A stretch of DNA of 9,713 bases, from positions 1 through 9,713 of IMG/VR virus record IMGVR_UViG_3300029250_000062; one strand, written 5' to 3'. The position numbers and the translations under genes are program-made. Source of the stretch: a virus (lineage: Duplodnaviria; Heunggongvirae; Uroviricota; Caudoviricetes). Shown here piece by piece: positions 1 through 9,713 of this stretch. The notes below the pieces were generated by a model. It saw nothing but the letters and a program-made list of their open reading frames with translations, ran no database searches and was not told the origin of the DNA. The first letter of the stretch is position 1. Each line of letters starts with the position of its first letter.

Positions 1-1764
1 GAATATTACTTTGTCATTGCGCTGGCCGGGCAGTCCAACTCGATGTCTTTTGGCGAGGGGCTGCCGCTGCCGGAGACATATGACCGTCCGGACCCGCGTA
101 TTAAACAGCTGGCGCGTCGCAGTACGGTGACGCCGGGTGGTGCCGCCTGTAAATATAACGACATCATTCCGGCAGACCACTGTCTGCATGATGTGCAGGA
201 TATGAGTAACCTGAATCATCCTCATGCAGACCTGAGTAAGGGACAGTACGGTTGTGTGGGGCATGCTCTGCATGTTGCCAAAAAGCTGCTGCCGTTTATG
301 CCTGCGAATGCGGGTATCCTTCTTGTTCCATGTGGCCGTGGCGATCCGGGATTTACTGCGGGGGCCGAGGGGGCGTTTAACGAAGCGTCGGGAGCGACCG
401 CAGGCTCGTCCCTGTGGGGGGCGGATAAACCGCTGTATCATGACCTGGTCAGCAGAACCCGTGCGGCCCTGAAGAAAAATCCGAAGAACGTGCTGTTATC
501 AGTGATCTGGATGCAGGGAGAAAAAGATGTCAGTTCGGGGAGACATGCAGAACACAATGCGCTTTTCCTTGCCATGGTAAATCAGTTCCGTACGGAACTG
601 GCAGATGTGGCAGAGCAGTGTACTGGCGGGACAACGGCCAGCGTCCCGTGGATTTGCGGTGATACCACGTACTACTGGAAGGAAAGGTATGCAGCGCCGT
701 ATGAGGCGGTTTACGGTGGGTATAAAGGCAAAGCTGCGCAGAATATTCACTTTGTGCCGTTGATGACGGATGAGCATGGTGCGAATGTGCCGACAAACGA
801 GCCGTCAGAAGATCCGGACATTATCCCGGCGGGATACTATGGCGCTGCGTCACGCACTGCCAGTAACTGGACGTCAGCCGATCGTAAAACGCACTTCAGT
901 TCATGGGCGCGAAGAGGCCTTGTTTCAGACCGCCTGGCAGGTGCCATTTTGCAGTACGCCGGGCGGACATTATCGTTCCTTACCGGGCAGAGCGCACCGC
1001 AGTCGGGTGGTACAACTCCCGGTGATGATGTCAGTCCGGGGACACCGGATGTTGAGAAACCGCAGGATGGCGGTGTTGCTGGTACTGGTCATGATGAGGC
1101 CGTGAGCAGTACCAGGACGGTGGCTGAATATGATGCGAACAGTGGAAATGGTGTATGGACAGAGCAGCAGTGGGGGGCTGCCGGTGGCAAAGGCACTGTG
1201 ACTGATGACGGTGGACGGAAAGCGCTACGACTGGAAAAACAGCCCGGTAAACTGACGTCCTGGAAAATGTTCCGTACTGTTGCAGTGGAGGAGGCAAAAA
1301 ATCTTCTCAGCAAGGGGGGTGAAATTGCCGTACGGTTCAAAATTCCGGATGGAAGCGAACTGGTGAACGGACAGTTTGTCTTTGGTCTCTACTGGCCGGT
1401 GTCGCAGTGGGCGTCAGGCGCGGCAGCAAACAGTATGCTGGCATCATTCTTCCTTCAGACGGATGCATCAAATCTGAATCTTATGCACCACAAGGGCACG
1501 TCGAATGCACAACTGGGTACATTTGGTGCGTTTGACCATAACTGGCATACGGTTGTTTTCCGCTTTGCGGGAAATAACAGCGAAAGAGTCGTTCCGGTGA
1601 TTGATGGTACAGAGCAGACGGCGTTTGACCTTGTGATGTGGACAAATGATGGCTTTACAGCAGATACGCTGACGCTGACAGATATCACGGGGGCAAAAGC
1701 GACGTATCCTGTACTGCTTGATACGGTCACAGTCAAAGTTAACGAAAGCCGGGCATCATCATAA
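1..1764 (+). CDS. NanS-p-like sialate O-acetylesterase (SGNH/SASA-type hydrolase with C-terminal extension); 5'-truncated by window edge
   Basis: Frame is open from base 1; the listed ATG at 43 is internal. First in-window residues EYYFVIALAGQSNSMSFGEG contain the GQSN catalytic-serine block of SGNH/SASA esterases. Stop TAA at 1762-1764. Position immediately upstream of the lysis cassette matches where nanS-p sits in Stx-type lambdoid prophages (recollection, not searched). Confidence 0.7.
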   Translation, partial: EYYFVIALAGQSNSMSFGEGLPLPETYDRPDPRIKQLARRSTVTPGGAACKYNDIIPADHCLHDVQDMSNLNHPHADLSKGQYGCVGHALHVAKKLLPFMPANAGILLVPCGRGDPGFTAGAEGAFNEASGATAGSSLWGADKPLYHDLVSRTRAALKKNPKNVLLSVIWMQGEKDVSSGRHAEHNALFLAMVNQFRTELADVAEQCTGGTTASVPWICGDTTYYWKERYAAPYEAVYGGYKGKAAQNIHFVPLMTDEHGANVPTNEPSEDPDIIPAGYYGAASRTASNWTSADRKTHFSSWARRGLVSDRLAGAILQYAGRTLSFLTGQSAPQSGGTTPGDDVSPGTPDVEKPQDGGVAGTGHDEAVSSTRTVAEYDANSGNGVWTEQQWGAAGGKGTVTDDGGRKALRLEKQPGKLTSWKMFRTVAVEEAKNLLSKGGEIAVRFKIPDGSELVNGQFVFGLYWPVSQWASGAAANSMLASFFLQTDASNLNLMHHKGTSNAQLGTFGAFDHNWHTVVFRFAGNNSERVVPVIDGTEQTAFDLVMWTNDGFTADTLTLTDITGAKATYPVLLDTVTVKVNESRASS

Positions 1765-1903: not shown

Positions 1904-2086
1904 ATGACATTTGTTCATCAGGTGATGCTGTACTTCTGTACGGCAGTCTGTGTTATGTATCTTCTTTCGGGTGGGTACAGGGCAGTGCGCGATTTCTGGC
2001 GCAGGCAGATTGATAAAAGGGCCGCAGAGAAAATCAGTGCCAGTCAGTCAGCCGGAAGCAAACCTGAAGATCCGCTCATTCCGTAG
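1904..2086 (+). CDS. Hypothetical small protein (60 aa) with one predicted N-terminal transmembrane helix
   Basis: ATG start, hydrophobic segment VMLYFCTAVCVMYLLSGG, weak SD. No recognisable family. Confidence 0.3.
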   Translation: MTFVHQVMLYFCTAVCVMYLLSGGYRAVRDFWRRQIDKRAAEKISASQSAGSKPEDPLIP

Positions 2087-2123: not shown

Positions 2124-2414
2124 ATGTCAGAAATAAAATCGCTGGTCACTGCTGAGGCAGTGAAGGAAGTCCTGCGCTCTGAAGAAGTCCGGAGCGCACT
2201 GAAACAGCAACTTCGGCAGAACCTTGAGGCGCGTCTTGATGCAGAAGTGGATGCCATTCTGGATGAATTGCTTGGTGCACAGCCGGAACCATCCCCGGAA
2301 CTGCTTCCGGAACCACAGGCGGAAGATGTCACCACGGAAAATGGTGATATTCAGCCGGAGTCACCGGTGACGGATATGACAGACACACAACCCGAACCGG
2401 GCACAATGCTGTAA
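2124..2414 (+). CDS. Hypothetical acidic protein (96 aa) with Pro/Glu-rich C-terminus
   Basis: In-frame ATG at 2124 inside listed ORF 1950..2414, placed just after the stop of the preceding small ORF (2084-2086). Helical charged N-terminal half, then PEPSPELLPEPQAED...TQPEPG low-complexity tail. Followed directly by a strong terminator. Confidence 0.45.
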   Translation: MSEIKSLVTAEAVKEVLRSEEVRSALKQQLRQNLEARLDAEVDAILDELLGAQPEPSPELLPEPQAEDVTTENGDIQPESPVTDMTDTQPEPGTML

Positions 2415-2425
2415 CGGCGGGGCAG

Positions 2426-2460
2426 GGCCATCAGTAAAACACTGATGGCCTTTTTTATTT
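2426..2460 (+). terminator. Rho-independent terminator
   Basis: Perfect 10-bp stem GGCCATCAGT (2426-2435) / ACTGATGGCC (2441-2450), 5-nt loop, then TTTTTTATTT (2451-2460). Confidence 0.6.
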
Positions 2461-2490: not shown

Positions 2491-2706
2491 ATGTATCAGA
2501 TGGAAAAAATATCAACGGGCATAGCCTATGGTACTTCTGCGGGCAGTGCGGGTTACTGGTTTCTACAGTGGTTGGATCAGGTTACTCCGTCACAGTGGGC
2601 TGCTATCGGGGTTTTGGGGAGCCTGTGTCTGGGGTTCCTGACATACCTGACGAATCTGTATTTCAAGATTAAAGAAGACCGGCGCAAAGCTGCGCGGGGA
2701 GAGTAA
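2491..2706 (+). CDS. S: Class II holin, phage 21 S / 933W S-like (pinholin-type), dual-start motif
   Basis: 71 aa; N-terminal MYQMEK gives two in-frame Met starts (holin/antiholin pattern). Two hydrophobic segments (Gly/Ala-rich [18 protein letters not shown] and [23 protein letters not shown]) then charged tail [13 protein letters not shown]. Close to my recollection of S21/933W S. Directly upstream of the lysozyme gene. Confidence 0.85.
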
Positions 2707-2710
2707 GCTG

Positions 2711-3244
2711 ATGAGCAGGAAACTCCACTATGGTTTATCGGTAGCCGTTCTGGCGCTGATTGCCACAGGTGCTTCTGCGCCTGAAATCCTCGACCAGTTT
2801 CTTGACGAAAAAGAAGGTAACCACACCACGGCATACCGTGATGGTGCGGGGATCTGGACCATCTGCCGTGGTGCCATCATGGTGGATGGCAAACCTGTCG
2901 TCCCGGGCATGAAGTTGTCGAAGGAAAAATGCGCTCAGGTTAATGCCATTGAACGTGATAAGGCGCTGGCATGGGTGGAGAAAAACATCAAATTGCCACT
3001 GACTGAACCGCAGAAAGCGGGCATCGCGTCATTCTGTCCGTACAACATCGGGCCTTCGAAATGCTTCACCTCAACGTTTTACCGGAAACTGAACGCCGGA
3101 GACCGGAAAGGTGCATGTGCTGAAATCCGCCGATGGATATATGACGGCGGCAGGGACTGTCGGAATCGCTCAAATAACTGTTACGGGCAGGTATCGCGGC
3201 GTGACCAGGAGAGCGCGCTGGCGTGCTGGGGAATTGACAGATAA
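2711..3244 (+). CDS. R: SAR endolysin (T4-lysozyme-like muramidase, R21-type)
   Basis: 177 aa. N-terminal weakly hydrophobic signal-anchor-release segment LHYGLSVAVLALIATGASAP. E-8aa-D-5aa-T catalytic triad in EGNHTTAYRDGAGIWT. Starts 5 nt after the holin stop. Confidence 0.85.
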   Translation: MSRKLHYGLSVAVLALIATGASAPEILDQFLDEKEGNHTTAYRDGAGIWTICRGAIMVDGKPVVPGMKLSKEKCAQVNAIERDKALAWVEKNIKLPLTEPQKAGIASFCPYNIGPSKCFTSTFYRKLNAGDRKGACAEIRRWIYDGGRDCRNRSNNCYGQVSRRDQESALACWGIDR

Positions 3245-3333
3245 GCAGAATATTTTGCTGAAAAATGCGGTTTGCTCACACGGACGGATAACACGAAATC
3301 CTGCGAACTGACAAAAACTAAGTGAATAAAAGT

Positions 3334-3367
3334 AAAAACCCCGTTTGTTGGCTGCAAGCGGGGTTTT
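3334..3367. terminator. Putative intrinsic terminator (possibly bidirectional) inside the lysis cassette
   Basis: AAAAA-CCCCG (3334-3343) ... CGGGG-TTTT (3359-3367): GC stem flanked by an A-run upstream and a T-run downstream; 15-nt loop. Confidence 0.4.
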
Positions 3368-3400
3368 GTGTTTCTGACCTTGGATAAGGCAAGGGAGAAC

Positions 3401-3583
3401 ATGGAAAAGTATAAACGAATTCTGTTGAGGTTGACTATGAAAAACGGCCTTGAACTGAAAGCGCCTGTAACTGATGACATCAGCAGAGCACTGGCTTTTG
3501 CCATTAAGTGGGTGGCGGTCGGTGTTGCTGTGTCCCCGATGCTGTATGGGCTGGCAAAACTGGTCATTGCGTTGAAATCGTGA
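3401..3583 (+). CDS. Hypothetical small membrane protein (60 aa), C-terminal transmembrane helix
   Basis: ATG at 3401 preceded by SD AGGGAG (3391-3396). Basic N-terminus [12 protein letters not shown]-terminal hydrophobic [22 protein letters not shown]. Lies between endolysin and spanin genes. Confidence 0.45.
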
Positions 3584-3597
3584 AGGGAGGATTAAGC

Positions 3598-3729
3598 ATG
3601 TCAGACAAACTCATAACGCTGGCGAAGATCCTCTGTGTAATTGTCGGCATTTCATTTTCACTAATGCTGGTTGCTCTTTTTCTTTCCATGGCCTGGATGA
3701 TGTTGTCTTCGTCGGGGCTGCTGGGGTGA
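3598..3729 (+). CDS. Hypothetical small membrane protein (43 aa), single transmembrane helix
   Basis: ATG at 3598 preceded by strong SD AAGGGAGGA. Sequence [43 protein letters not shown]. Its stop TGA (3727-3729) overlaps the GTG start of Rz (GTGA), suggesting translational coupling. Confidence 0.45.
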
Positions 3730-4199
3730 ACATAAACCGAATGCTTTCCGCGTTTATCGTTATTCTGCTGGTGGCCTGTGGTGCGCTGTGGATGGCAACA
3801 GACCATTACCGTGATAACGCGATTACCTACAAAGCGCAGCGCGATAACAAAGCCAGTGAACTGAAGCTGGCGAACGCAACCATTACTGATATGCAGGTGC
3901 GCCAGCGCGATGTTGCTGCGCTCGATGCAAAATACTCGAGGGAATTAGCCGATGCGAGAGCTGAAAATGAAACTCTTCGCGCTGACGTTGCCGCTGGTCG
4001 TAAGCGCCTGCGGATCAACGCCACCTGTCCAGGCTCCGTGCGTGAAGCCCCCACCACCTCCGGCGTGGATAATGCAACCGGCCCCAGACTGGCAGACGCC
4101 GCTGAACGGGATTATTTCATCCTCAGAGAACGGTTGATGACAATGCAGAAGCAGCTGGAAGGGGCACAGCTATACATTCGTGAGCAATGCCTCAGATAA
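3726..4199 (+). CDS. Rz: Rz inner-membrane spanin (i-spanin)
   Basis: N-terminal TM helix ([18 protein letters not shown]) then [14 protein letters not shown]...[25 protein letters not shown], which tracks lambda Rz closely (recollection). GTG start at 3726; alternative ATG at 3741. Confidence 0.85.
3952..4137 (+). CDS. Rz1: Rz1 outer-membrane lipoprotein spanin (o-spanin), embedded in the +1 frame of Rz
   Basis: Lipobox LVVSAC, proline-rich [26 protein letters not shown] typical of lambda-type Rz1. SD GAGGGAA upstream; alternative start ATG 3967. Fully nested within Rz. Confidence 0.8.
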
Positions 4200-4588
4200 A
4201 AACCGGCCAAGGATAATCCGCTGAAGATTTGCCGGTGGCTAAAGGGGCCAAGCCACCAATTTACGTAATTAGCCACAGAGATACAATATTTTAGTTTACT
4301 TATGTATTTCTGAAGCATGTCTTTGCGCAGTATCGTCGCCGTATTCCCACATGAACAGAGACCGCAGCCCTACCGGGAGACTCCTCTGCGCGAGTGTGCG
4401 GGGATAATCAAAAACGATACACACCGGGGTTTACCGCGTTAACGGAGCGCGGCGTTGTCCCCTCATGGTCGCTGGTCCGGTGCGATGGTGGAAGAAACCG
4501 GACGATGTGTTACCTCGCAAGCTCTGTTATGTCATGTGTCTGATTTGTGATTTAAGTCGGATAATTGTCGTTGCCATTAAACAGAGGA

Positions 4589-4631
4589 TTGATGACCGAC
4601 AGGGTGGCATTGTTAGAATAAGACTTATTCT
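4589..4631 (+). promoter_or_regulatory. Putative sigma70 promoter (extended -10) with overlapping perfect palindromic operator-like site
   Basis: -35-like TTGATG (4589-4594), 19-bp spacer, extended -10 TGtTAGAAT (4611-4619). Palindrome AGAATAAG-a-CTTATTCT (4615-4631, 8-bp perfect arms) overlaps the -10/+1 region and ends 14 bp before the downstream lipoprotein start. Confidence 0.3.
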
Positions 4632-4645
4632 TATCTGTGCCGGGA

Positions 4646-4978
4646 ATGAAAATGAAAAGAAATCTTCCGTTAATTATTTTGTTGTCTTCTCTGGTTATGG
4701 GCTGTACGCAACATAAAACAGATATGCCCCGACAGTTGGTTAAGGCATTACCACAATATCCGGCCTATGCAGCGGCAAATTATATAAAGGGACGGGTTGA
4801 TGTGAAGTTTGATATTGGTGCTGATGGTACTGTCACCCGAATTGAGTTTATCCGTTCAGAGCCGCACCATTTGTTTGATGAGCAGGTTGTAAAGGCGATG
4901 GCAAAATGGCGATTTGAGAAGGACAGGCCGTGTAAAGGCGTGAAGAAAACGTTTATCTTTAGTCCTTCTGCACCCTGA
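4646..4978 (+). CDS. Lipoprotein consisting essentially of a TonB C-terminal-like domain (moron candidate)
   Basis: Signal peptide with lipobox (MKMKRNLPLIILLSSLVMG-C; Thr at +2 suggests outer-membrane sorting). Mature part LPQYPAYAAANYIKGRVDVKFDIGADGTVTRIEFIRSEPHHLFDEQVVKAMAKWRFE parallels the E. coli TonB C-terminal domain (PQYP...G.V.V.F.....DG.V.......P...F...V..AM..WR(Y/F), from memory). Alternative start ATG 4652 has better SD spacing. Confidence 0.7.
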   Translation: MKMKRNLPLIILLSSLVMGCTQHKTDMPRQLVKALPQYPAYAAANYIKGRVDVKFDIGADGTVTRIEFIRSEPHHLFDEQVVKAMAKWRFEKDRPCKGVKKTFIFSPSAP

Positions 4979-5011
4979 TTATTTCATCAGAAATTAATTA
5001 TCACTCTGTTG

Positions 5012-5113
5012 TTATTCTGTACATCCCGGCAGGGTAAGTCTTGTTCCGTCGGATATGAAGATGAAATATTGTTGGAGGACAGTGGGTACCTGCTCCTGTA
5101 ACCGAACGTTCAT
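5012..5113 (-). CDS. Possible 33-aa ORF translationally coupled to the upstream RHH gene (speculative)
   Basis: On the minus strand the ATG overlaps the RHH stop (ATGA). Product MNVRLQEQVPTVLQQYFIFISDGTRLTLPGCTE. Below the length cutoff of the supplied ORF track; no family recognised. Confidence 0.2.
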   Translation of the reverse strand: MNVRLQEQVPTVLQQYFIFISDGTRLTLPGCTE

Positions 5114-5310
5114 TTCTCGTTATTTTTCATGCTGGCCGGGCGCAGATGCGTTGCATCTGTTGCCAGCCTTCTCCTGCAGGCTTCAATAACCCACGCTGAA
5201 AAGTTACCGGACCCTTTATGCTCAAGGGCGATGCTGATCTGTTCAATCATGTGATTGGGGAAACGGATATTGCGGGTTGTGGTTCTGCGGGTCCGGTTTT
5301 TCGATGACAT
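5110..5310 (-). CDS. Arc/Mnt-like ribbon-helix-helix DNA-binding protein (possibly YlcI/YnfO DUF3950-like)
   Basis: 66 aa from ATG at 5310-5308 with SD AAGGAAA 8 nt upstream on the minus strand. RNIRFPNHMIEQISIALEHKGSGNFSAWVIEACRRRL aligns in pattern with Arc repressor FNLRWPREVLDLVRKVAEENGRSVNSEIYQRVMESF (beta-strand then two helices). Opposite strand to the surrounding late genes. Confidence 0.65.
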   Translation of the reverse strand: MSSKNRTRRTTTRNIRFPNHMIEQISIALEHKGSGNFSAWVIEACRRRLATDATHLRPASMKNNEK

Positions 5311-5351
5311 ATTTATTTCCTTTACTGATTGCCATATGACGGGGATTTTAC

Positions 5352-5717
5352 ATGGCTCAGCTTCGTACACTCCAGAGCAGAATCAAAACACTGAATACCC
5401 GACGGGTGAATATTCTGAAGGGGGAGCAGCGTCGTGTCAGTGGCAGTGCACGTGTTTCCCTCAAGCGTCATATCTGGCTGAGGGACGCCGGGCAGTGCTG
5501 TATCTGTGGTCGTGTGGTTGACCTCTGTGACAGTGAACTTGATCACCGAATTGCACTTCAGTTCGGTGGTGGTAATGAGGAGACGAATCTCTGGACGCTC
5601 TGTACCGAATGCCATCGACAAAAGTCTGCTCGTGAAGCGGCGGGTGGTATGCCGGACCCGACGCTGCCGGAGGTGTCCGGAGGTAGTGGCAGAGCGGACG
5701 ACATCATCGGACTGTAA
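5352..5717 (+). CDS. HNH endonuclease (packaging-associated, HK97 gp74-like)
   Basis: CxxC...DH...N...CxxCH arrangement: CCICGRVVD, SELDHRIALQFGGGNEETNLWTLCTECHRQK. Sits immediately upstream of the cos-like region and terS, the usual place in HK97-like packaging modules. Confidence 0.85.
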   Translation: MAQLRTLQSRIKTLNTRRVNILKGEQRRVSGSARVSLKRHIWLRDAGQCCICGRVVDLCDSELDHRIALQFGGGNEETNLWTLCTECHRQKSAREAAGGMPDPTLPEVSGGSGRADDIIGL

Positions 5718-5810
5718 CCCGACCCGGGGGGGGGGATCATCCGGCGTAAAAAACGATCGCTTTGGACACCGCGCCCCCTCTCACGCAGAGAAAAAATTCC
5801 CGTTTCAGGG

Positions 5811-5936
5811 CAGTTAACATGTTAACTGGCTGCCCGGGCATTTTTGCGGTTTTTATCTTTATTATTCAGTTTGTTGTGCGGAAAAAATGTTAACTGGCTT
5901 TTTCAGCAAATGTTAACCAGGCAGCAGTTAACATTT
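5811..5936. repeat. Array of five ATGTTAAC/GTTAACAT motifs (palindrome, direct repeat, inverted pair); putative cosB / terminase small-subunit recognition sites
   Basis: 18-bp perfect palindrome CAGTTAACATGTTAACTG (5811-5828); 12-bp direct repeat ATGTTAACTGGC (5819-5830 and 5887-5898); inverted pair AAATGTTAAC (5908-5917) / GTTAACATTT (5927-5936) with 9-bp spacer. All in non-coding DNA between HNH and terS, ending about 70 bp before the terS start. Confidence 0.45.
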
Positions 5937-6008
5937 GCGGCATGAGACGCCGGGAAAAATGGGCTGAACCATACCCGGCTGAGTGCGTTCTGGACCCGGG
6001 AGGAGGCT

Positions 6009-6572
6009 GTGCTGACAACGCAAAAACGAAAATTTGCGCTGGCGCTCATGTCCGGGAAAAACAAAACAGCGTCAGCCATTGCCGCCGGTTATTCGGCGAA
6101 GACCGCCAGGGTTAAAGGCTCGCAGCTGGCAAAAGATCCGGAGGTGCTTGCGTTTATAGCCCGTAAACAATGCGAGACGGTGGAGGTGGATGAGGTTCCT
6201 GTTTACCGGCAGAAAAAATCAGAGCAGGAGGATAAACCCCGTCGCCGTGAGGCGGCTGCAATACCACAGCCGGACGAAAACAATCCGGAGATGCCACCGT
6301 CCGCGGTGATGTCTCCTGGTATTGAATATATGGAGGATGGTCTTCCCGATCCGGTGAAAGCCATGGGGCGGATCCTGGTGGAAAACCTCTGCATTGATCC
6401 GAAACTGGCACTGGATGCGGCCTGGCGTCTGGCGCAGTTCACGCACCATAAAAAAGGGGATACCGGGAAAAAATCGGCAAAAGGTGATGCCGCGAAAAAA
6501 GCGGCTAACCGTTTTGCGGTGCCACCGCCACCCAGACTGGTGGTGAATAACGATAATGAGGGCAACGGATGA
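6009..6572 (+). CDS. terS: Terminase small subunit (HTH-containing)
   Basis: GTG start at 6009 with SD GGGAGG/AGGAGG (5998-6006). N-terminal LTTQKRKFALALMSGKNKTASAIAAGYSAKTARVKGSQL matches the usual terS signature (K.FA..Y....N.T.AAI.AGYS.KTA...GS.L). Stop TGA overlaps the terL ATG (ATGA at 6569-6572). Confidence 0.85.
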   Translation: MLTTQKRKFALALMSGKNKTASAIAAGYSAKTARVKGSQLAKDPEVLAFIARKQCETVEVDEVPVYRQKKSEQEDKPRRREAAAIPQPDENNPEMPPSAVMSPGIEYMEDGLPDPVKAMGRILVENLCIDPKLALDAAWRLAQFTHHKKGDTGKKSAKGDAAKKAANRFAVPPPPRLVVNNDNEGNG

Positions 6573-8230
6573 TACCTGTATGGAGCACAGCCTGCCCGGA
6601 CTGGGCAGAGCGCCTGAAAAAGGGGCTGTCGATTATTCCGGATCCGATTTATCCGGACGAGGCCGCACATGCCCTGGCGATTTTTAAACAACTGCGGATT
6701 GTGGATGCACCTGGTAGCCCGACGTTCGGGGAGTCCTGTGCACGGTGGGTGTTTGACCTGGTGGCGGCCCTGTTTGGCTCCTACGATGCGCAGACCGGTG
6801 TACGCCATATCAAGGAAGTTTTTATCCTTATCCCCAAGAAAAACTCGAAGTCCACGCTGGCCGCGGGGATCATGATGACGGCGCTGTTACTGAACTGGCG
6901 GCAGGCGGCGGGTTACACGATTCTGGCCCCGACTGTGGAGGTGGCGGCCAACGCCTTCAACCCTGCCCGGGATATGGTACGACGTGACGATGATCTGGAT
7001 GACCTCTGCCAGGTACAGACCCATATCCGGACCATCACCCACAGGGTGACAGACACCACCCTGAAGGTGGTGGCAGCCGATCCGAATACGGTGTCCGGTA
7101 TCAAGTCCGTGGGTACGCTGATTGATGAGTTGTGGCTGTTTGGCAAGCAGTGCAAGGCGGAGGACATGTTACGTGAAGCCATAGGCGGCCTTGCCTCCCG
7201 CCCGGAAGGGTTTGTGGTGTATACGACCACCCAGTCGAATGAACCGCCCGCCGGGGTGTTCAGACAGAAACTGCAGTACGCCCGGGATGTGCGCGACGGC
7301 AAAATTCATGATCCGCACTTTCTGCCGGTGATATTTGAACACCCTCCTGAAATGGTGGAAAGCGGGACTCACCTGCTGATGGAAAACCTCGCCATGGTCA
7401 ATCCGAATCTCGGCTATTCAGTGGATGAGGCCTTTCTGTACCGGGAGTACCGTAAAGCCCGGGAAGCCGGTGAAGAGACATTCCGGGGGTTCATGTCAAA
7501 ACACGCCAATGTGGAAATTGGTCTTGCCCTGCGCTCTGACCGCTGGGCGGGGGCTGATTTCTGGGAAGAGCAGGGCCGTTGTATCAGCCTGGACGATATC
7601 CTGCGTCGTGCTGATGTGGTGACGGTGGGGATTGACGGCGGAGGGCTGGATGATCTGCTGGGGATGTATGTGATTGGGCGTGACCGGGAGACCCGCGAAT
7701 GGCTGGGCTGGGGCCATGCCTGGGCGCATGAAACCGCGGTGGTCCGACGGAAGAGCGAGGCGTCCCGGTTTCAGGATCTTGTTGCCTGTGGAGATATGAC
7801 CATTGTCCGGCGTGTCGGGGATGACACGGCGGAAGTGGCGGAATATGTGCGTCGCATTCATGAGGCTGAGTTACTGGACCATATCGGTATTGACCCGTCA
7901 GGGGTGGGGCAGATTCTGGATTCACTGGCGGAAGCCGGGATCCCCGACGGAATTGTGGTGGGGATAAGCCAGGGCTGGAAACTGGGCGGGGCCATTAAAA
8001 CCACCGAGCGCAAACTGGCTGAAGGGGTGCTGGTGCATGGTGACCAGCCCCTGATGGCCTGGTGTGTCGGCAATGCCCGGGTGGAGCCTAAAGGTAACGC
8101 CATTCTTATCACCAAACAGGCCAGTGGACGGGGAAAAATTGACCCGCTGATGGCGCTGTTCAATGCGGTCTCCCTGATGTCCCTTAACCCGGAACCGAAA
8201 AAGAAAGAATATGCGGTTTTTTTCATATAA
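6569..8230 (+). CDS. terL: Terminase large subunit (ATPase + RNase H-like nuclease domains)
   Basis: 553 aa. Walker A-like ILIPKKNSKSTLAAG, Walker B-like GTLIDELW, C-terminal nuclease-type acidic cluster VTVGIDGGGLDDLLGMYVIG. Translationally coupled to terS. Confidence 0.9.
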   Translation: MIPVWSTACPDWAERLKKGLSIIPDPIYPDEAAHALAIFKQLRIVDAPGSPTFGESCARWVFDLVAALFGSYDAQTGVRHIKEVFILIPKKNSKSTLAAGIMMTALLLNWRQAAGYTILAPTVEVAANAFNPARDMVRRDDDLDDLCQVQTHIRTITHRVTDTTLKVVAADPNTVSGIKSVGTLIDELWLFGKQCKAEDMLREAIGGLASRPEGFVVYTTTQSNEPPAGVFRQKLQYARDVRDGKIHDPHFLPVIFEHPPEMVESGTHLLMENLAMVNPNLGYSVDEAFLYREYRKAREAGEETFRGFMSKHANVEIGLALRSDRWAGADFWEEQGRCISLDDILRRADVVTVGIDGGGLDDLLGMYVIGRDRETREWLGWGHAWAHETAVVRRKSEASRFQDLVACGDMTIVRRVGDDTAEVAEYVRRIHEAELLDHIGIDPSGVGQILDSLAEAGIPDGIVVGISQGWKLGGAIKTTERKLAEGVLVHGDQPLMAWCVGNARVEPKGNAILITKQASGRGKIDPLMALFNAVSLMSLNPEPKKKEYAVFFI

Positions 8231-8255
8231 CCCTGTTCACACTGTAACCATCACG

Positions 8256-8277
8256 AACCGCTCCGGCGGTTTTTTTA
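8256..8277 (+). terminator. Putative intrinsic terminator between terL and the head genes
   Basis: Stem AACCGC (8256-8261) / GCGGTT (8266-8271), tetraloop TCCG, followed by a T-run (through about 8280). Short stem, so modest confidence. Confidence 0.4.
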
Positions 8278-8293
8278 TTTTCAGGAGGCTGAT

Positions 8294-9713
8294 GTGACTC
8301 TTAAACGGGCCTGTTCCCTGCTGACGGTGAAATCCTTCAGTGAGGATGAACGGGTGATCACCGGGATTGCGTCAACGCCTTCTCCGGATCGGGATGGTGA
8401 CATCCTGGAGCCGGAGGGCGCGGAGTTTGGCAGTGCGATCCCGTTTCTCTGGCAGCATGACCATTCCCGCCCGGTGGGGCAGTGTACGGTGCGCCGGGTC
8501 AGCGAAGGGCTGGAAATCACGGCAACACTGGTGAAGCCCGTACCGGATATGCCGTCGCAACTGGCTGCCCGGCTGGATGAGGTCTGGGCGGCCATTAAGA
8601 CCGGGCTGGTCAGGGGGCTGTCCGTGGGCTTCCGTCCCCATGAATACACCTTTCTGGACGGAGGCGGACTGCATTTTCTGCGCTGGGAACTGATGGAGGT
8701 GTCTGCCGTCACCGTGCCCGCGAATGCGGAATGCACCATCCGGACCATTAAATCTTACGACCGCCCGTTTTCTGCCGCGTCCGGCAACCGGAAACCGGTG
8801 GTGAAAATCGCATCTTCTGCCGGCGCTGCGGCACAGTCAACAACCGTTTTTCATAAGGAAAAGACCATAATGAATATTGGCGAACAGATTAAAAGTTTTG
8901 AAAACAAGCGTGCAGCGCTGGCAGCCTCCCTTGAGGAGGTCATGACCAAAGCCGCAGAGGAAGGGCGCACGCTGGATGTGGAGGAGGAAGAGCATTACGA
9001 CAACACCGCAGCGGAAATCCGTCAGGTGGATGCGCACCTGAAGCGCCTGCGTGAACTGGAAGCCGGTAAGGCCGCCACGGCGCAGCCGGTGAAACAGGCC
9101 GGTAACGGGAATGTGGCCGCGGTGGCTTCTGCGCCGGTGATCCGTGTGGAGCAGAAACTGGATAAGGGGATTGGCTTCGCCCGCTTTGCCAAATCGCTGG
9201 CTGCGGCTAAAGGCGTCCGATCTGAAGCCCTGGAAGTGGCCCGTCGTCAGTATCCGGATGACAGTCGTCTGCATCATGTCCTGAAATCGGCAGTGGGCGC
9301 GGGGACCACCACGGATCCGCAGTGGGCAGGCAGCCTGTCTGAATATCAGGAATACGCACAGGACTTTATTGATTACCTGCGTCCGCAGACCATTATCGGG
9401 CGATTTGGTCAGGGCGGGATCCCTGCACTTCGTCAGGTGCCGTTCAATATCCGTGTGCACGCCCAGGTGTCCGGCGGTGCTGCCGGCTGGGTGGGTGAGG
9501 GTAAGGCAAAACCCCTGACGAAGTTTGATTTTGAATCCATCACCTTCAGTCATGCGAAGGTGTCGGCCATTGCGGTACTGACGGAAGAATTGATCCGTTT
9601 TTCCAGTCCGGCTGCTGATGCACTGGTCCGTAATGCGCTGGCGGAAGCGGTGGTGGCGCGTCTGGATACAGACTTTGTGGACCCGAAAAAAGCCGCAGTG
9701 GCAGATGTCTCCC
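8294..9713 (+). CDS. HK97-family prohead protease fused in-frame to major capsid protein (delta domain + HK97 fold); 3'-truncated by window edge
   Basis: GTG 8294 preceded by SD AGGAGG (8283-8288). I translated this frame codon by codon and found no stop from 8294 to 9712; that is why it is absent from the ORF track. Protease motifs GIASTPSPDRDGDILEP, PFLWQHD, VSAVTVPANAEC; then Ala/Ser/Gly-rich linker; then from Met (ATG 8870) a coiled-coil delta-like region and capsid-like body (DKGIGFARFAKSL... GWVGEGKAKP... AVLTEELIRFSSPAA). Confidence 0.75.
   Translation, partial: MTLKRACSLLTVKSFSEDERVITGIASTPSPDRDGDILEPEGAEFGSAIPFLWQHDHSRPVGQCTVRRVSEGLEITATLVKPVPDMPSQLAARLDEVWAAIKTGLVRGLSVGFRPHEYTFLDGGGLHFLRWELMEVSAVTVPANAECTIRTIKSYDRPFSAASGNRKPVVKIASSAGAAAQSTTVFHKEKTIMNIGEQIKSFENKRAALAASLEEVMTKAAEEGRTLDVEEEEHYDNTAAEIRQVDAHLKRLRELEAGKAATAQPVKQAGNGNVAAVASAPVIRVEQKLDKGIGFARFAKSLAAAKGVRSEALEVARRQYPDDSRLHHVLKSAVGAGTTTDPQWAGSLSEYQEYAQDFIDYLRPQTIIGRFGQGGIPALRQVPFNIRVHAQVSGGAAGWVGEGKAKPLTKFDFESITFSHAKVSAIAVLTEELIRFSSPAADALVRNALAEAVVARLDTDFVDPKKAAVADVS
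8870..9713 (+). CDS. Possible independently translated major capsid protein from internal in-frame start (nested in the protease-capsid ORF)
   Basis: ATG 8870 preceded by AAGGAAAAG (8855-8863). Product begins MNIGEQIKSFENKRAALAASLEEVMTKAAEEG, a typical N-terminal scaffold-like delta domain. Analogous in logic to lambda C/Nu3 nested translation. Confidence 0.4.
   Translation, partial: MNIGEQIKSFENKRAALAASLEEVMTKAAEEGRTLDVEEEEHYDNTAAEIRQVDAHLKRLRELEAGKAATAQPVKQAGNGNVAAVASAPVIRVEQKLDKGIGFARFAKSLAAAKGVRSEALEVARRQYPDDSRLHHVLKSAVGAGTTTDPQWAGSLSEYQEYAQDFIDYLRPQTIIGRFGQGGIPALRQVPFNIRVHAQVSGGAAGWVGEGKAKPLTKFDFESITFSHAKVSAIAVLTEELIRFSSPAADALVRNALAEAVVARLDTDFVDPKKAAVADVS

What the first reader, a model, noticed from the sequence alone, without database searches (positions are those of the whole stretch)
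1..1764. NanS-p-like esterase directly upstream of the lysis cassette, the Stx-phage cargo position
The ORF carries the SGNH/SASA catalytic block and a roughly 250-aa C-terminal extension that may be a carbohydrate-binding domain. In Stx-converting lambdoid phages (as I recall for 933W) nanS-p lies between stx and S, so this window probably starts just downstream of the late-promoter cargo slot. Whether a toxin or other cargo precedes it cannot be seen here. The esterase itself is an accessory function (mucin sialic acid de-O-acetylation) co-expressed with lysis.
Basis: partly seen in the sequence, partly recalled or inferred. Interest (0 to 1): 0.4.

Follow-up and report, generated by a model that had tools for sequence, protein, structure and literature searches.

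The report
Prophage NanS-p sialic-acid esterase gene
This is a copy, cut at its 5' end by the window edge, of a well-known phage gene for an enzyme that strips acetyl groups from gut-mucus sialic acid, in its usual place ahead of the lysis genes of an E. coli lambdoid prophage; it is ordinary except for one odd amino-acid change beside the catalytic pocket.

Summary
Frame 1 is open from base 1 to the stop at 1762-1764. It encodes 587 residues of a NanS-p esterase; about 75 N-terminal codons (the DUF1737 domain) lie outside the window. Residues 1-319 match E. coli NanS (PDB 3PT5, E=7e-113). Residues 373-581 match the lectin-like C-terminal domain of phage NanS-p (PDB 6YP6, E=3e-48).

DUF1378, DUF826, a terminator-like hairpin, holin, endolysin and Rz/Rz1 follow, as in 933W. 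The nearest relatives (99.7% nt) have Q, a methyltransferase, tRNA-Ile and tRNA-Arg upstream. A TolA-like ORF sits where Stx phages carry stxAB. None of 26 loci with this allele type has stx.

Two additions:
- A 2026 preprint shows the phi24B orthologue is a capsid-decoration protein anchored by DUF1737. In 99 loci, DUF1737 class follows head-module type while the esterase and lectin modules shuffle. The enzyme may therefore be virion-borne rather than pure cargo.
- The window carries a private Ser116Pro change at an invariant Block II position, which may impair catalysis or be a sequencing error.

The parts
1..1764 (+). nanS-p gene, cut at its 5' end by the window edge (587 codons plus stop; about 75 N-terminal codons including DUF1737 are missing)
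   Evidence: Open frame. phrog_143 profile positions 71-632 of 634, E=2.5e-268. 99.66% nt identity to the 662-aa SASA family esterase genes of E. coli G1/2 and UCPROB-002.
1..963 (+). SASA / SGNH type II esterase domain (aa 1-321)
   Evidence: 3PT5 NanS E=7e-113 over aa 1-319. 55.6% identity to NanS and 70.3% to the 933W NanS-p esterase domain. Pfam SASA partial hit.
28..39 (+). Block I, GQSN: Gln11 (oxyanion hole) and Ser12 (nucleophile)
   Evidence: Invariant in 99 of 99 homologues and in NanS. Equivalent to NanS Gln18/Ser19 (PMC9063846; PMC10792757 Table 2).
337..354 (+). Block II, RGDPGF (NanS has RGGSAF). Codon 346-348 CCG is Pro116, where every homologue has Ser.
   Evidence: Ser in 99 of 99 homologues and in NanS. 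12 of 12 close relatives have T at nt 346. The exact 40-mer is absent from the viral, genome and metagenome collections.
508..522 (+). Block III, WMQGE (the SASA-type QGE motif)
   Evidence: Q, G and E invariant in 99 of 99. The motif role is described in PMC9487903.
883..894 (+). Block V, RKTH, with the catalytic His298 (codon 892-894)
   Evidence: His invariant in 99 of 99 and aligned to NanS His301. Stx2a-phage alleles read RSSH, RASH or RPTH at this block (PMC10462455).
964..1116 (+). Pro/Gly/Ser-rich interdomain linker (aa 322-372)
   Evidence: No homology to NanS or 6YP6. Variable and indel-rich among homologues. It lacks the SSP motif proposed as the autoprocessing site in phi24B gp84.
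1117..1743 (+). C-terminal lectin-like jelly-roll domain (DUF6645; aa 373-581)
   Evidence: 6YP6 E=3e-48. Pfam DUF6645 E=6e-33. 47.8% identity to the 933W domain. The four aromatic residues of the proposed sugar site (Y510, Y515, Y540, F611 of vb_24B_21; PMC10462455) are F, Y, F, F here (read from the alignment).
1904..2086 (+). DUF1378 small membrane-like protein (60 aa)
   Evidence: Pfam DUF1378 E=2e-37. Follows nanS-p in relatives in the same order, and in a Stx2a phage.
2124..2414 (+). DUF826 protein (96 aa)
   Evidence: Pfam DUF826 E=7e-29. phrog_311.
2424..2452 (+). Terminator-like hairpin (12-bp stem) followed by TTTTTTATTT, between DUF826 and the holin gene
   Evidence: Consensus scan. 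Fold energy -22.6 kcal/mol, z=-4.2, none of 200 shuffles as stable. The position is conserved in 933W and Stx2_95, with weaker stems.
2491..2706 (+). Class II holin (P21 S type)
   Evidence: Pfam Phage_holin_2_1 E=5e-35.
2711..3244 (+). Endolysin (lysozyme)
   Evidence: Pfam Phage_lysozyme E=8e-25. phrog_7.
3726..4199 (+). Rz spanin, with Rz1 embedded at 3952-4137
   Evidence: Pfam Phage_lysis E=1e-48 and Rz1 E=1e-21.
8294..9713 (+). Start of an HK97-type prohead protease-major capsid fusion gene. It defines the head type that a virion-bound NanS-p would have to bind.
   Evidence: Pfam Peptidase_S78 and Phage_capsid. 645-aa orthologues in relatives.

Best explanation
Window 1-1764 is the 3' 89% of a nanS-p gene, the phage-borne paralogue of E. 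coli nanS. It lies in the late operon of a lambdoid prophage with an HK97-type head and a siphovirus tail.

The full protein (about 662 aa) has three modules:
- An N-terminal DUF1737 domain, outside the window.
- A SASA/SGNH type II esterase. It uses a Ser-His dyad (Ser12, His298 in window numbering) with an oxyanion hole formed by Gln11 and the Block II turn.
- A C-terminal lectin-like jelly-roll domain that probably holds the enzyme on sialoglycans.

By homology it removes the 9-O-acetyl group from Neu5,9Ac2 and from O-acetylated mucin glycans, making sialic acid usable.

The gene has no signal peptide and no promoter-like site in front of it in relatives; terminator-like hairpins precede it. 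It is therefore probably transcribed from pR' under Q antitermination together with the lysis genes, and leaves the cell only at lysis. It would leave either free or, as shown for the phi24B orthologue, attached to the capsid through DUF1737.

The slot upstream, where Stx phages carry stxAB, most likely holds a TolA-like ORF or nothing, not a toxin.

What is shown: identity, domain structure, conserved catalytic residues, gene order, and the context in relatives. What is inferred: substrate, regulation, release route, the content of this window's own upstream DNA, and the effect of Ser116Pro.
For: Identity and domains:
- 3PT5 NanS E=7e-113 and 6YP6 NanS-p C-terminal domain E=3e-48.
- Pfam SASA and DUF6645; phrog_143.
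- 56% identity over aa 1-583 to 933W L0105.
- 98-99.7% identity to RefSeq 'SASA family carbohydrate esterase' genes and to phage PhiR5_1.

Catalytic residues Gln, Ser, Gly, QGE and His are invariant across 99 homologues and kept here.

Gene order matches 933W and Stx2_95. Relatives have Q, a 65-aa ORF, an N6/N4 methyltransferase, tRNA-Ile, tRNA-Arg and a TolA-like ORF upstream of nanS-p.

In L020 terminator-like hairpins and no + strand promoter-like site lie between the TolA-like ORF and nanS-p. There are none of 26 window-type loci with stx.

From the literature:
- All tested NanS-p alleles of EDL933 and O104:H4 were active Neu5,9Ac2 esterases, including alleles in non-Stx prophages (PMC8065619).
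- nanS-p expression rises on mitomycin C induction (PMC10462455).
- phi24B gp84 is a capsid-decoration protein (10.64898/2026.04.10.717836).
Against: - The window lacks the first 75 codons and everything upstream, so DUF1737, Q, the tRNAs and the cargo are inferred from relatives. The exact source was not found in any collection.
- This allele is only 56% identical to the biochemically tested 933W enzyme, and no paper held here tests this allele type.
- Ser116Pro replaces an invariant Block II residue and could reduce or abolish activity.
- Capsid attachment has been shown only for a T=9 podovirus, where gp84 binds flat face-centre hexons. This phage's HK97-type head is a different capsid type and presumably has no such hexons.
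Confidence: 0.85

Rival explanations
1. The protein is mainly a structural virion component. DUF1737 anchors it on capsid hexons, also in this HK97-head siphovirus. The esterase and lectin modules then act for the phage particle (mucus adherence or penetration), and any benefit to lysogens is secondary.
For: - phi24B gp84 is one of the strongest virion bands, and its DUF1737 hexamer is resolved on the capsid.
- In 99 loci the DUF1737 class follows head-module type. The short-loop class is found with lambda- or HK97-type TerL in 40 of 41 classifiable loci. The long-loop classes are found with 933W- or Stx2_95-type TerL in 11 of 11.
- The SASA and C-terminal classes are shuffled across head types, although they lie closer to the head genes.
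- There is no signal peptide.
Against: - Identical DUF1737 sequences occur with two unrelated capsid proteins, lambda gpE and the HK97-type S78-MCP fusion.
- phi24B binding is restricted to flat face-centre hexons of a T=9 shell, which a T=7 head, as expected for lambda- and HK97-type phages, does not have.
- The loci are phylogenetically non-independent, so the Fisher p of 2e-10 overstates the support.
- The SSP processing motifs are absent from this allele.
- There are no virion proteomics for this phage type.
Confidence: 0.35
2. The protein is a soluble cargo ('moron') enzyme that benefits the lysogen population only. It is released by the lysing subpopulation and frees Neu5Ac from O-acetylated mucin sialic acids as a carbon source for surviving siblings. 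It has no role in the virion.
For: - nanS-p alleles let EDL933 and O104:H4 grow on Neu5,9Ac2, and recombinant enzymes de-O-acetylate mucin glycans (summarised in PMC8065619).
- Genomes that carry the gene have a median of 3 copies, which fits selection on dosage.
- It sits next to the variable cargo slot.
Against: - The phi24B orthologue is physically on the capsid.
- An N-terminal capsid-binding-type domain is conserved in all 99 full-length alleles, which pure cargo would not need.
- DUF1737 class covaries with head type.
Confidence: 0.35
3. The window's allele is catalytically impaired. Ser116Pro in the Block II turn disrupts the oxyanion hole, leaving at most a lectin or decoration function; alternatively the change is a sequencing error.
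For: - Pro116 is the only residue of the 587 not seen in any of 99 homologues (78 distinct) or in NanS; all have Ser.
- The position is the fourth of Block II (NanS 120-RGGSAF-125; PMC10792757 Table 2).
- In thioesterase I the backbone NH of that position bonds to the carbonyl of position 1 and positions the oxyanion Gly. Proline has no backbone NH.
- The variant 40-mer is absent from three public collections.
Against: - The effect is inferred by analogy with another SGNH enzyme, not measured.
- The neighbouring Block II position varies freely (G, D, A, S), so the loop tolerates some change.
- The ORF is otherwise intact, with no frameshift or stop.
Confidence: 0.4
4. The esterase acts on bacterial surface polysaccharides (O-acetylated O-antigen or capsule) to help adsorption or release of the phage, rather than on host mucin.
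For: Raised as an open possibility in the review PMC8065619. Virion location in phi24B would suit a surface-modifying enzyme.
Against: - The only substrates reported for the family in the papers read here are Neu5,9Ac2 and O-acetylated mucin O-glycans.
- The enzyme is placed on capsid faces, not on the tail, which is a poor position for receptor processing.
- No experimental support is reported.
Confidence: 0.1
5. The window comes from a Shiga-toxin phage, with stxAB immediately upstream of the truncated nanS-p.
For: The position is the classic one downstream of stx. HK97-type-head prophages with stx next to nanS-p exist (L067, L072).
Against: - None of 26 loci carrying this allele type (SASA class 2 with C-terminal class 1) has stx; 9 have the TolA-like ORF.
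- The stx-linked alleles belong to a different SASA class.
- The two nearest relatives (99.66% nt) have the TolA-like ORF and come from human faecal isolates, one of them stated to be from a healthy individual.
Confidence: 0.04

Closest known systems
NanS-p of Stx2a phage 933W (L0105 / z1466) and its phi24B orthologue vb_24B_21 / gp84
   Same: Same three-module design (DUF1737, SASA esterase, lectin-like C-terminal domain). Same place in the late operon between the Q/tRNA/cargo region and the DUF1378/DUF826/S/R/Rz genes. All catalytic motif residues are shared. The aromatic residues of the proposed sugar-binding site are retained as aromatics (PMC10462455).
   Different: - Only 56% identical overall: 70% in the esterase domain and 48% in the C-terminal domain.
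- Block V reads RKTH instead of RASH, and Block II reads RGDP instead of RGGS.
- The linkers lack the SSP motifs.
- In relatives DUF1737 is the short-loop class rather than the Tyr42 long-loop class.
- The phage has an HK97-type head and a long tail, not the T=9 podovirus particle.
- There is no stx upstream in relatives.
Chromosomal E. coli NanS (YjhS), PDB 3PT5
   Same: Homologous SGNH type II esterase domain (E=7e-113, 55.6% identity). Same Ser-His dyad without a Block V Asp, and the same Gln plus QGE inverted oxyanion hole.
   Different: As described in the literature (PMC10462455), NanS consists of the catalytic domain alone; the DUF1737 and lectin-like domains flanking the SASA domain are characteristic of the prophage-borne genes. 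NanS is chromosomally encoded, not in a phage late operon.
WP_054518646.1, 'SASA family carbohydrate esterase' of E. coli G1/2 and UCPROB-002 prophages, and the PhiR5_1 orthologue
   Same: Essentially the same allele: 99.66% nt over window 1-1764. PhiR5_1 is 98.1% identical at the protein level. Same downstream DUF1378 and DUF826 genes.
   Different: Four amino-acid differences from WP_054518646.1, including the private Ser116Pro. Those prophages carry a DUF1327/YdfR gene between holin and endolysin that the window lacks. PhiR5_1 has a lambda-type head module.

Membership tests
NanS-p (phage-borne sialate O-acetylesterase) | Central SASA/SGNH esterase domain homologous to NanS | tested here: met
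   3PT5 E=7e-113 over aa 1-319. Pfam SASA above its cut-off (39.3 vs 24.8 bits).
NanS-p (phage-borne sialate O-acetylesterase) | Catalytic residues: Block I GQSN (Gln and Ser), Block III QGE, Block V His | tested here: met
   All present, and invariant in 99 homologues and in NanS.
NanS-p (phage-borne sialate O-acetylesterase) | Intact Block II oxyanion turn (R-G-x-S) | tested here: inconclusive
   The Gly is kept, but the invariant Ser is Pro in the window only. The functional effect was not measurable here.
NanS-p (phage-borne sialate O-acetylesterase) | N-terminal DUF1737 domain | not testable with these tools
   The window starts at residue 76 of the full protein. All relatives from 88 to 99.7% identity carry DUF1737, but the source's own 5' end was not found.
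NanS-p (phage-borne sialate O-acetylesterase) | C-terminal lectin-like jelly-roll domain (DUF6645; PDB 6YP6) | tested here: met
   6YP6 E=3e-48. DUF6645 E=6e-33.
NanS-p (phage-borne sialate O-acetylesterase) | Location in a lambdoid late operon between the Q/cargo region and the lysis genes | tested here: met
   The downstream half is seen in the window. The upstream half is seen in relatives at 99.66% identity.
NanS-p (phage-borne sialate O-acetylesterase) | Neu5,9Ac2 esterase activity | not testable with these tools
   Needs an enzyme assay. Activity is reported for EDL933 and O104:H4 alleles (PMC8065619).
Shiga-toxin-converting phage | stxAB between the tRNA genes and nanS-p | not testable with these tools
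   The region is outside the window. In relatives with this allele type it is not met: none of 26 has stx.
DUF1737 capsid-decoration proteins (phi24B gp84 type) | DUF1737 domain of the phi24B type (long loop with Tyr42) together with a 933W/phi24B-type T=9 capsid | tested here: not met
   The window's head module is an HK97-type S78 protease-MCP fusion. Relatives of this allele carry the short-loop DUF1737 class. This lowers 'is a gp84-type decoration protein', not 'may bind its own capsid'.

The most novel reading that the evidence does not exclude
NanS-p may be a modular capsid-display system in all lambdoid phages. On this reading the small DUF1737 domain is a head-type-specific anchor: the short-loop class for lambda- and HK97-type heads, and the long-loop class for 933W-type T=9 heads. 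Interchangeable esterase and lectin modules would be swapped onto it. The window's phage would then carry a mucus-targeting enzyme on its capsid, and 'lysogen nutrition' would be a by-product. The private Ser116Pro allele would be a natural variant that keeps display and lectin binding but loses catalysis.
Probability: 0.25. Interest if true: 0.45.

Novelty: already known. Interest (0 to 1): 0.15.

Why it matters
As a gene identification it adds little. nanS-p alleles in Stx and non-Stx prophages have been catalogued and assayed, and an almost identical protein is already in RefSeq.

It does give a clean example of the Q-to-S cargo hot spot in lambdoid phages. The same flanks (methyltransferase and tRNAs upstream, nanS-p downstream) hold different contents in different relatives:
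- stxAB
- a TolA-like ORF
- methylase genes resembling a type I restriction-modification system
- TerB-like genes
- nothing

The more useful by-product bears on an open question. If the DUF1737 class really tracks head type, the phi24B finding that this 'metabolic' enzyme is a capsid decoration may extend to the much more common long-tailed lambdoid prophages of commensal E. coli. That would change how nanS-p copy number and diversity are interpreted.

Tried and rejected
- **Search for the source genome.** Exact-protein look-ups with the endolysin and the DUF826 protein returned 18 loci, none identical to the window. The best whole-window match is 97.3%. The window is a mosaic: 1-2714 and 4324-9713 resemble UCPROB-002, and 2744-4169 resembles other prophages.
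- **Exact 40-mer around the Pro116 codon.** No match in viral, genome or metagenome contigs. The variant and the source therefore remain unlocated.
- **Primary papers not held.** Rangarajan 2011 (NanS structure), Saile 2016 and Feuerbaum 2018 could not be read. Catalytic-residue numbering was taken from PMC9063846, PMC10792757 and PMC9487903 instead.
- **Search for a paper on the PhiR5/PhiR12 phages.** Only irrelevant hits.
- **Strict regular expression for the terminator hairpin.** It undercounted (6 of 86). Direct alignment showed the element is conserved in position with variable stem quality.
- **Pfam SASA alone.** It would have given a weak, partial picture; the PDB sequence search was decisive.
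- **tRNA scan of the window.** Nothing found.
- **Structure prediction.** Not run, because it would not resolve the effect of a single substitution.
Full report
**1. What is in the sequence**

Frame 1 of the + strand is open from base 1 to a TAA at 1762-1764. The ORF listing reports an ORF from the ATG at 43, but that ATG is internal. The translated sequence aligns from its first codon with residue 76 of 662-aa proteins annotated 'SASA family carbohydrate esterase' in E. coli G1/2 and UCPROB-002, at 99.66% nt identity over 1-1764. The PHROG profile phrog_143 is matched from profile position 71. The window edge therefore removes about 225 nt, which is the DUF1737 domain and the first linker.

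Residues 1-319 match the solved structure of E. coli NanS (3PT5) with E=7e-113 and 55.6% identity. Pfam SASA is hit only partially. After a Pro/Gly/Ser-rich linker of about 50 residues, residues 373-581 match the crystallised C-terminal domain of a phage NanS-p (6YP6, E=3e-48) and Pfam DUF6645.

**2. Surroundings in the window**

Downstream lie, in order:
- DUF1378 (1904-2086) and DUF826 (2124-2414).
- A strong terminator-like hairpin with a T-run (2424-2452; -22.6 kcal/mol, z=-4.2).
- A P21-type holin (2491-2706), a lysozyme (2711-3244) and Rz with embedded Rz1 (3726-4199 and 3952-4137).
- A TonB_C lipoprotein ORF in a low-GC island (4637-4978).
- An HNH endonuclease, the small and large terminase subunits, and the start of an HK97-type prohead protease-capsid fusion gene.

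There are no tRNA genes in the window. 'Directly upstream of the lysis cassette' therefore means 727 bp upstream, with two small genes in between. The same small genes are annotated between nanS-p and the holin gene in the Stx2a phage Stx2_95, and 933W has one ORF (L0106) there.

**3. The cargo-slot claim**

In 933W the annotated order is Q, pR', qut, terminators, ileZ, argN, argO, stxA2, stxB2, L0105 (nanS-p), L0106, S, R, Rz. The Stx2a phage Stx2_95 has Q, a 65-aa ORF, a methylase, three tRNAs, stx2AB, nanS-p, two small ORFs and the holin.

The nearest relatives of the window have Q, a 65-aa ORF, an N6/N4 methyltransferase, tRNA-Ile, tRNA-Arg, a TolA-like 142-aa ORF, nanS-p, DUF1378, DUF826 and the holin. 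The TolA-like ORF therefore sits exactly where stxAB sits in Stx phages.

Other relatives fill the slot with N6_Mtase plus Methylase_S genes, TerB plus DUF3927, a DnaD_N protein, or nothing. Among 27 loci with the window's allele type, 26 have at least 1.5 kb of upstream DNA. Of those, none has stx and 9 have the TolA-like ORF.

In L020 the 525-bp spacer before nanS-p holds terminator-like hairpins and no + strand promoter-like site. This fits Q-dependent late transcription, as does the induction of nanS-p by mitomycin C reported in PMC10462455.

The source genome itself was not found. The window's own upstream content is therefore an inference from relatives.

**4. How it most likely works**

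From the literature:
- NanS uses Ser19 and His301 without a catalytic Asp. Gln18 and a Block II glycine form the oxyanion hole (PMC9063846).
- The SASA family positions that Gln through the Block III (H)QGE motif (PMC9487903).
- Block assignments for 3PT5 are GQSNA, RGGSAF, MQGEFD and SHFS (PMC10792757).

In an alignment of the window with 99 full-length homologues (78 distinct) and NanS, the Gln, Ser, Block II Gly, Q-G-E and His are invariant and are present in the window.

The four aromatic residues proposed for sugar binding in the vb_24B_21 C-terminal domain (PMC10462455) are F, Y, F and F here (read from the alignment).

By homology the enzyme de-O-acetylates Neu5,9Ac2 and O-acetylated mucin glycans. 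All tested EDL933 and O104:H4 alleles did so, including alleles in non-Stx prophages (PMC8065619). The relatives' N-terminus has no signal peptide, so export depends on lysis.

**5.

(a) *Ser116Pro.* Residue 116 (codon 346-348, CCG) is Pro. It is the only window residue absent from all 99 homologues and from NanS, which all have Ser. Twelve of twelve close relatives have T at nt 346. This is position 4 of Block II. In thioesterase I the backbone NH of that position bonds to the carbonyl of position 1 and holds the oxyanion glycine, and proline has no such NH. The change may weaken catalysis, or it may be a sequencing error. Neither can be decided here.

(b) *Capsid decoration.* A 2026 preprint shows that phi24B gp84, a NanS-p, is an abundant virion protein. 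Its DUF1737 domain sits as a hexamer on face-centre hexons of a T=9 capsid, with Tyr42 as an anchor, and the protein is later processed. The 933W protein has the same Tyr42, Gly54 and SISSP features.

I tested whether this could extend to the window's phage type, using 99 loci classified by their large-terminase type.

| DUF1737 class | Terminase type found with it | Count |
|---|---|---|
| Short loop (GSPVAITPYTLMQ), as in the window's relatives | lambda-gpA or HK97 type | 40 of 41 classifiable loci |
| Long loop | 933W or Stx2_95 type | 11 of 11 classifiable loci |

The esterase and C-terminal domain classes are spread across head types, although they lie closer to the head genes than DUF1737 does. 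This is what a head-specific anchor would look like.

The caveats are real:
- The loci are not independent, so the Fisher p of 2e-10 overstates the support.
- The same DUF1737 sequence occurs with two unrelated capsid proteins.
- T=7 shells, expected for lambda- and HK97-type heads, lack the flat face-centre hexon that gp84 uses.
- The SSP motifs are absent from this allele.

**6. Comparison with what is known, and novelty**

The closest characterised relatives are 933W L0105 and phi24B vb_24B_21. They are 56% identical overall, 70% in the esterase domain and 48% in the C-terminal domain. Chromosomal NanS is also close.

The allele itself is already in RefSeq and in the plaque-forming phage PhiR5_1, at 98.1% protein identity. 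About 1,170 of 5,426 complete E. coli genomes have similar DNA, with a median of three places per genome. nanS-p in non-Stx prophages is documented (PMC8065619, PMC10462455).

The finding is therefore correct but already known. Its interest lies only in the private Block II substitution and in the possible generalisation of capsid display.

**7. Verdict**

- Observation: confirmed.
- Interpretation: supported, with three corrections. The window starts inside the gene. The likely slot occupant is not a toxin. 'Accessory' may understate a structural role.
- Interest: 0.15.

Noticed in passing
window 2424-2452 (+): A 12-bp GC-rich hairpin followed by TTTTTTATTT lies between the DUF826 stop and the holin start. 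The element is conserved in position in 933W and Stx2_95, but the window has the most perfect stem. It would end any transcription not modified by Q before the lysis genes.
   Followed up: partly
window 2714-4324: The lysis cassette is a mosaic. Bases 1-2714 and 4324-9713 match the UCPROB-002 prophage at 97-99.7%, while 2744-4169 is closer (about 95%) to prophages with lambda-type heads (L002, L004, L017). The window lacks the DUF1327/YdfR gene that sits between holin and endolysin in its nearest relatives.
   Followed up: partly
window 4637-4978 (+), in the GC trough at about 4500-5000: A 113-aa ORF with a lipoprotein-like N-terminus and a TonB_C domain (E=1e-14) lies in a 41% GC island between Rz and the packaging genes. 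It looks like a separate cargo gene. PHROGs labels the family 'Rz-like spanin', which seems doubtful.
   Followed up: no
L020:7822-8250 (relatives; about 0.75 kb upstream of window base 1): A 142-aa ORF with a TolA C-terminal domain (PF06519) occupies the exact position of stxAB, between the phage tRNA genes and nanS-p. It is present in 9 of 26 loci with this nanS-p allele type. Its function is unknown; interference with Tol-dependent colicin or filamentous-phage entry is one idea.
   Followed up: partly
L003, L005, L007-L009, L013 (upstream of nanS-p): The slot between Q and nanS-p holds different genes in different prophages: N6_Mtase plus Methylase_S (resembling a type I restriction-modification system), TerB plus DUF3927, a DnaD_N protein, or nothing. 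It is a recombination hot spot for cargo.
   Followed up: partly
L001-L103, nanS-p 5' ends: DUF1737 sequence class follows head-module type: the short-loop class with lambda- or HK97-type terminases in 40 of 41 loci, and the long-loop classes with 933W- or Stx2_95-type in 11 of 11. The esterase and lectin modules are shuffled across head types. L060 is the single exception.
   Followed up: yes
window 3368-3583 and 3508-3729 (+): Two overlapping small ORFs lie between the endolysin and Rz. The first is 71 aa and matches phrog_1115; the second is 73 aa and looks hydrophobic. Neither has a known function.
   Followed up: no
window 5352-8230 and 8294-9713 (+): The order HNH endonuclease, small terminase, large terminase is followed directly by a prohead protease-major capsid fusion gene (Peptidase_S78 plus Phage_capsid), ahead of the portal gene in relatives. 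This is a head-gene order different from both lambda and 933W.
   Followed up: partly
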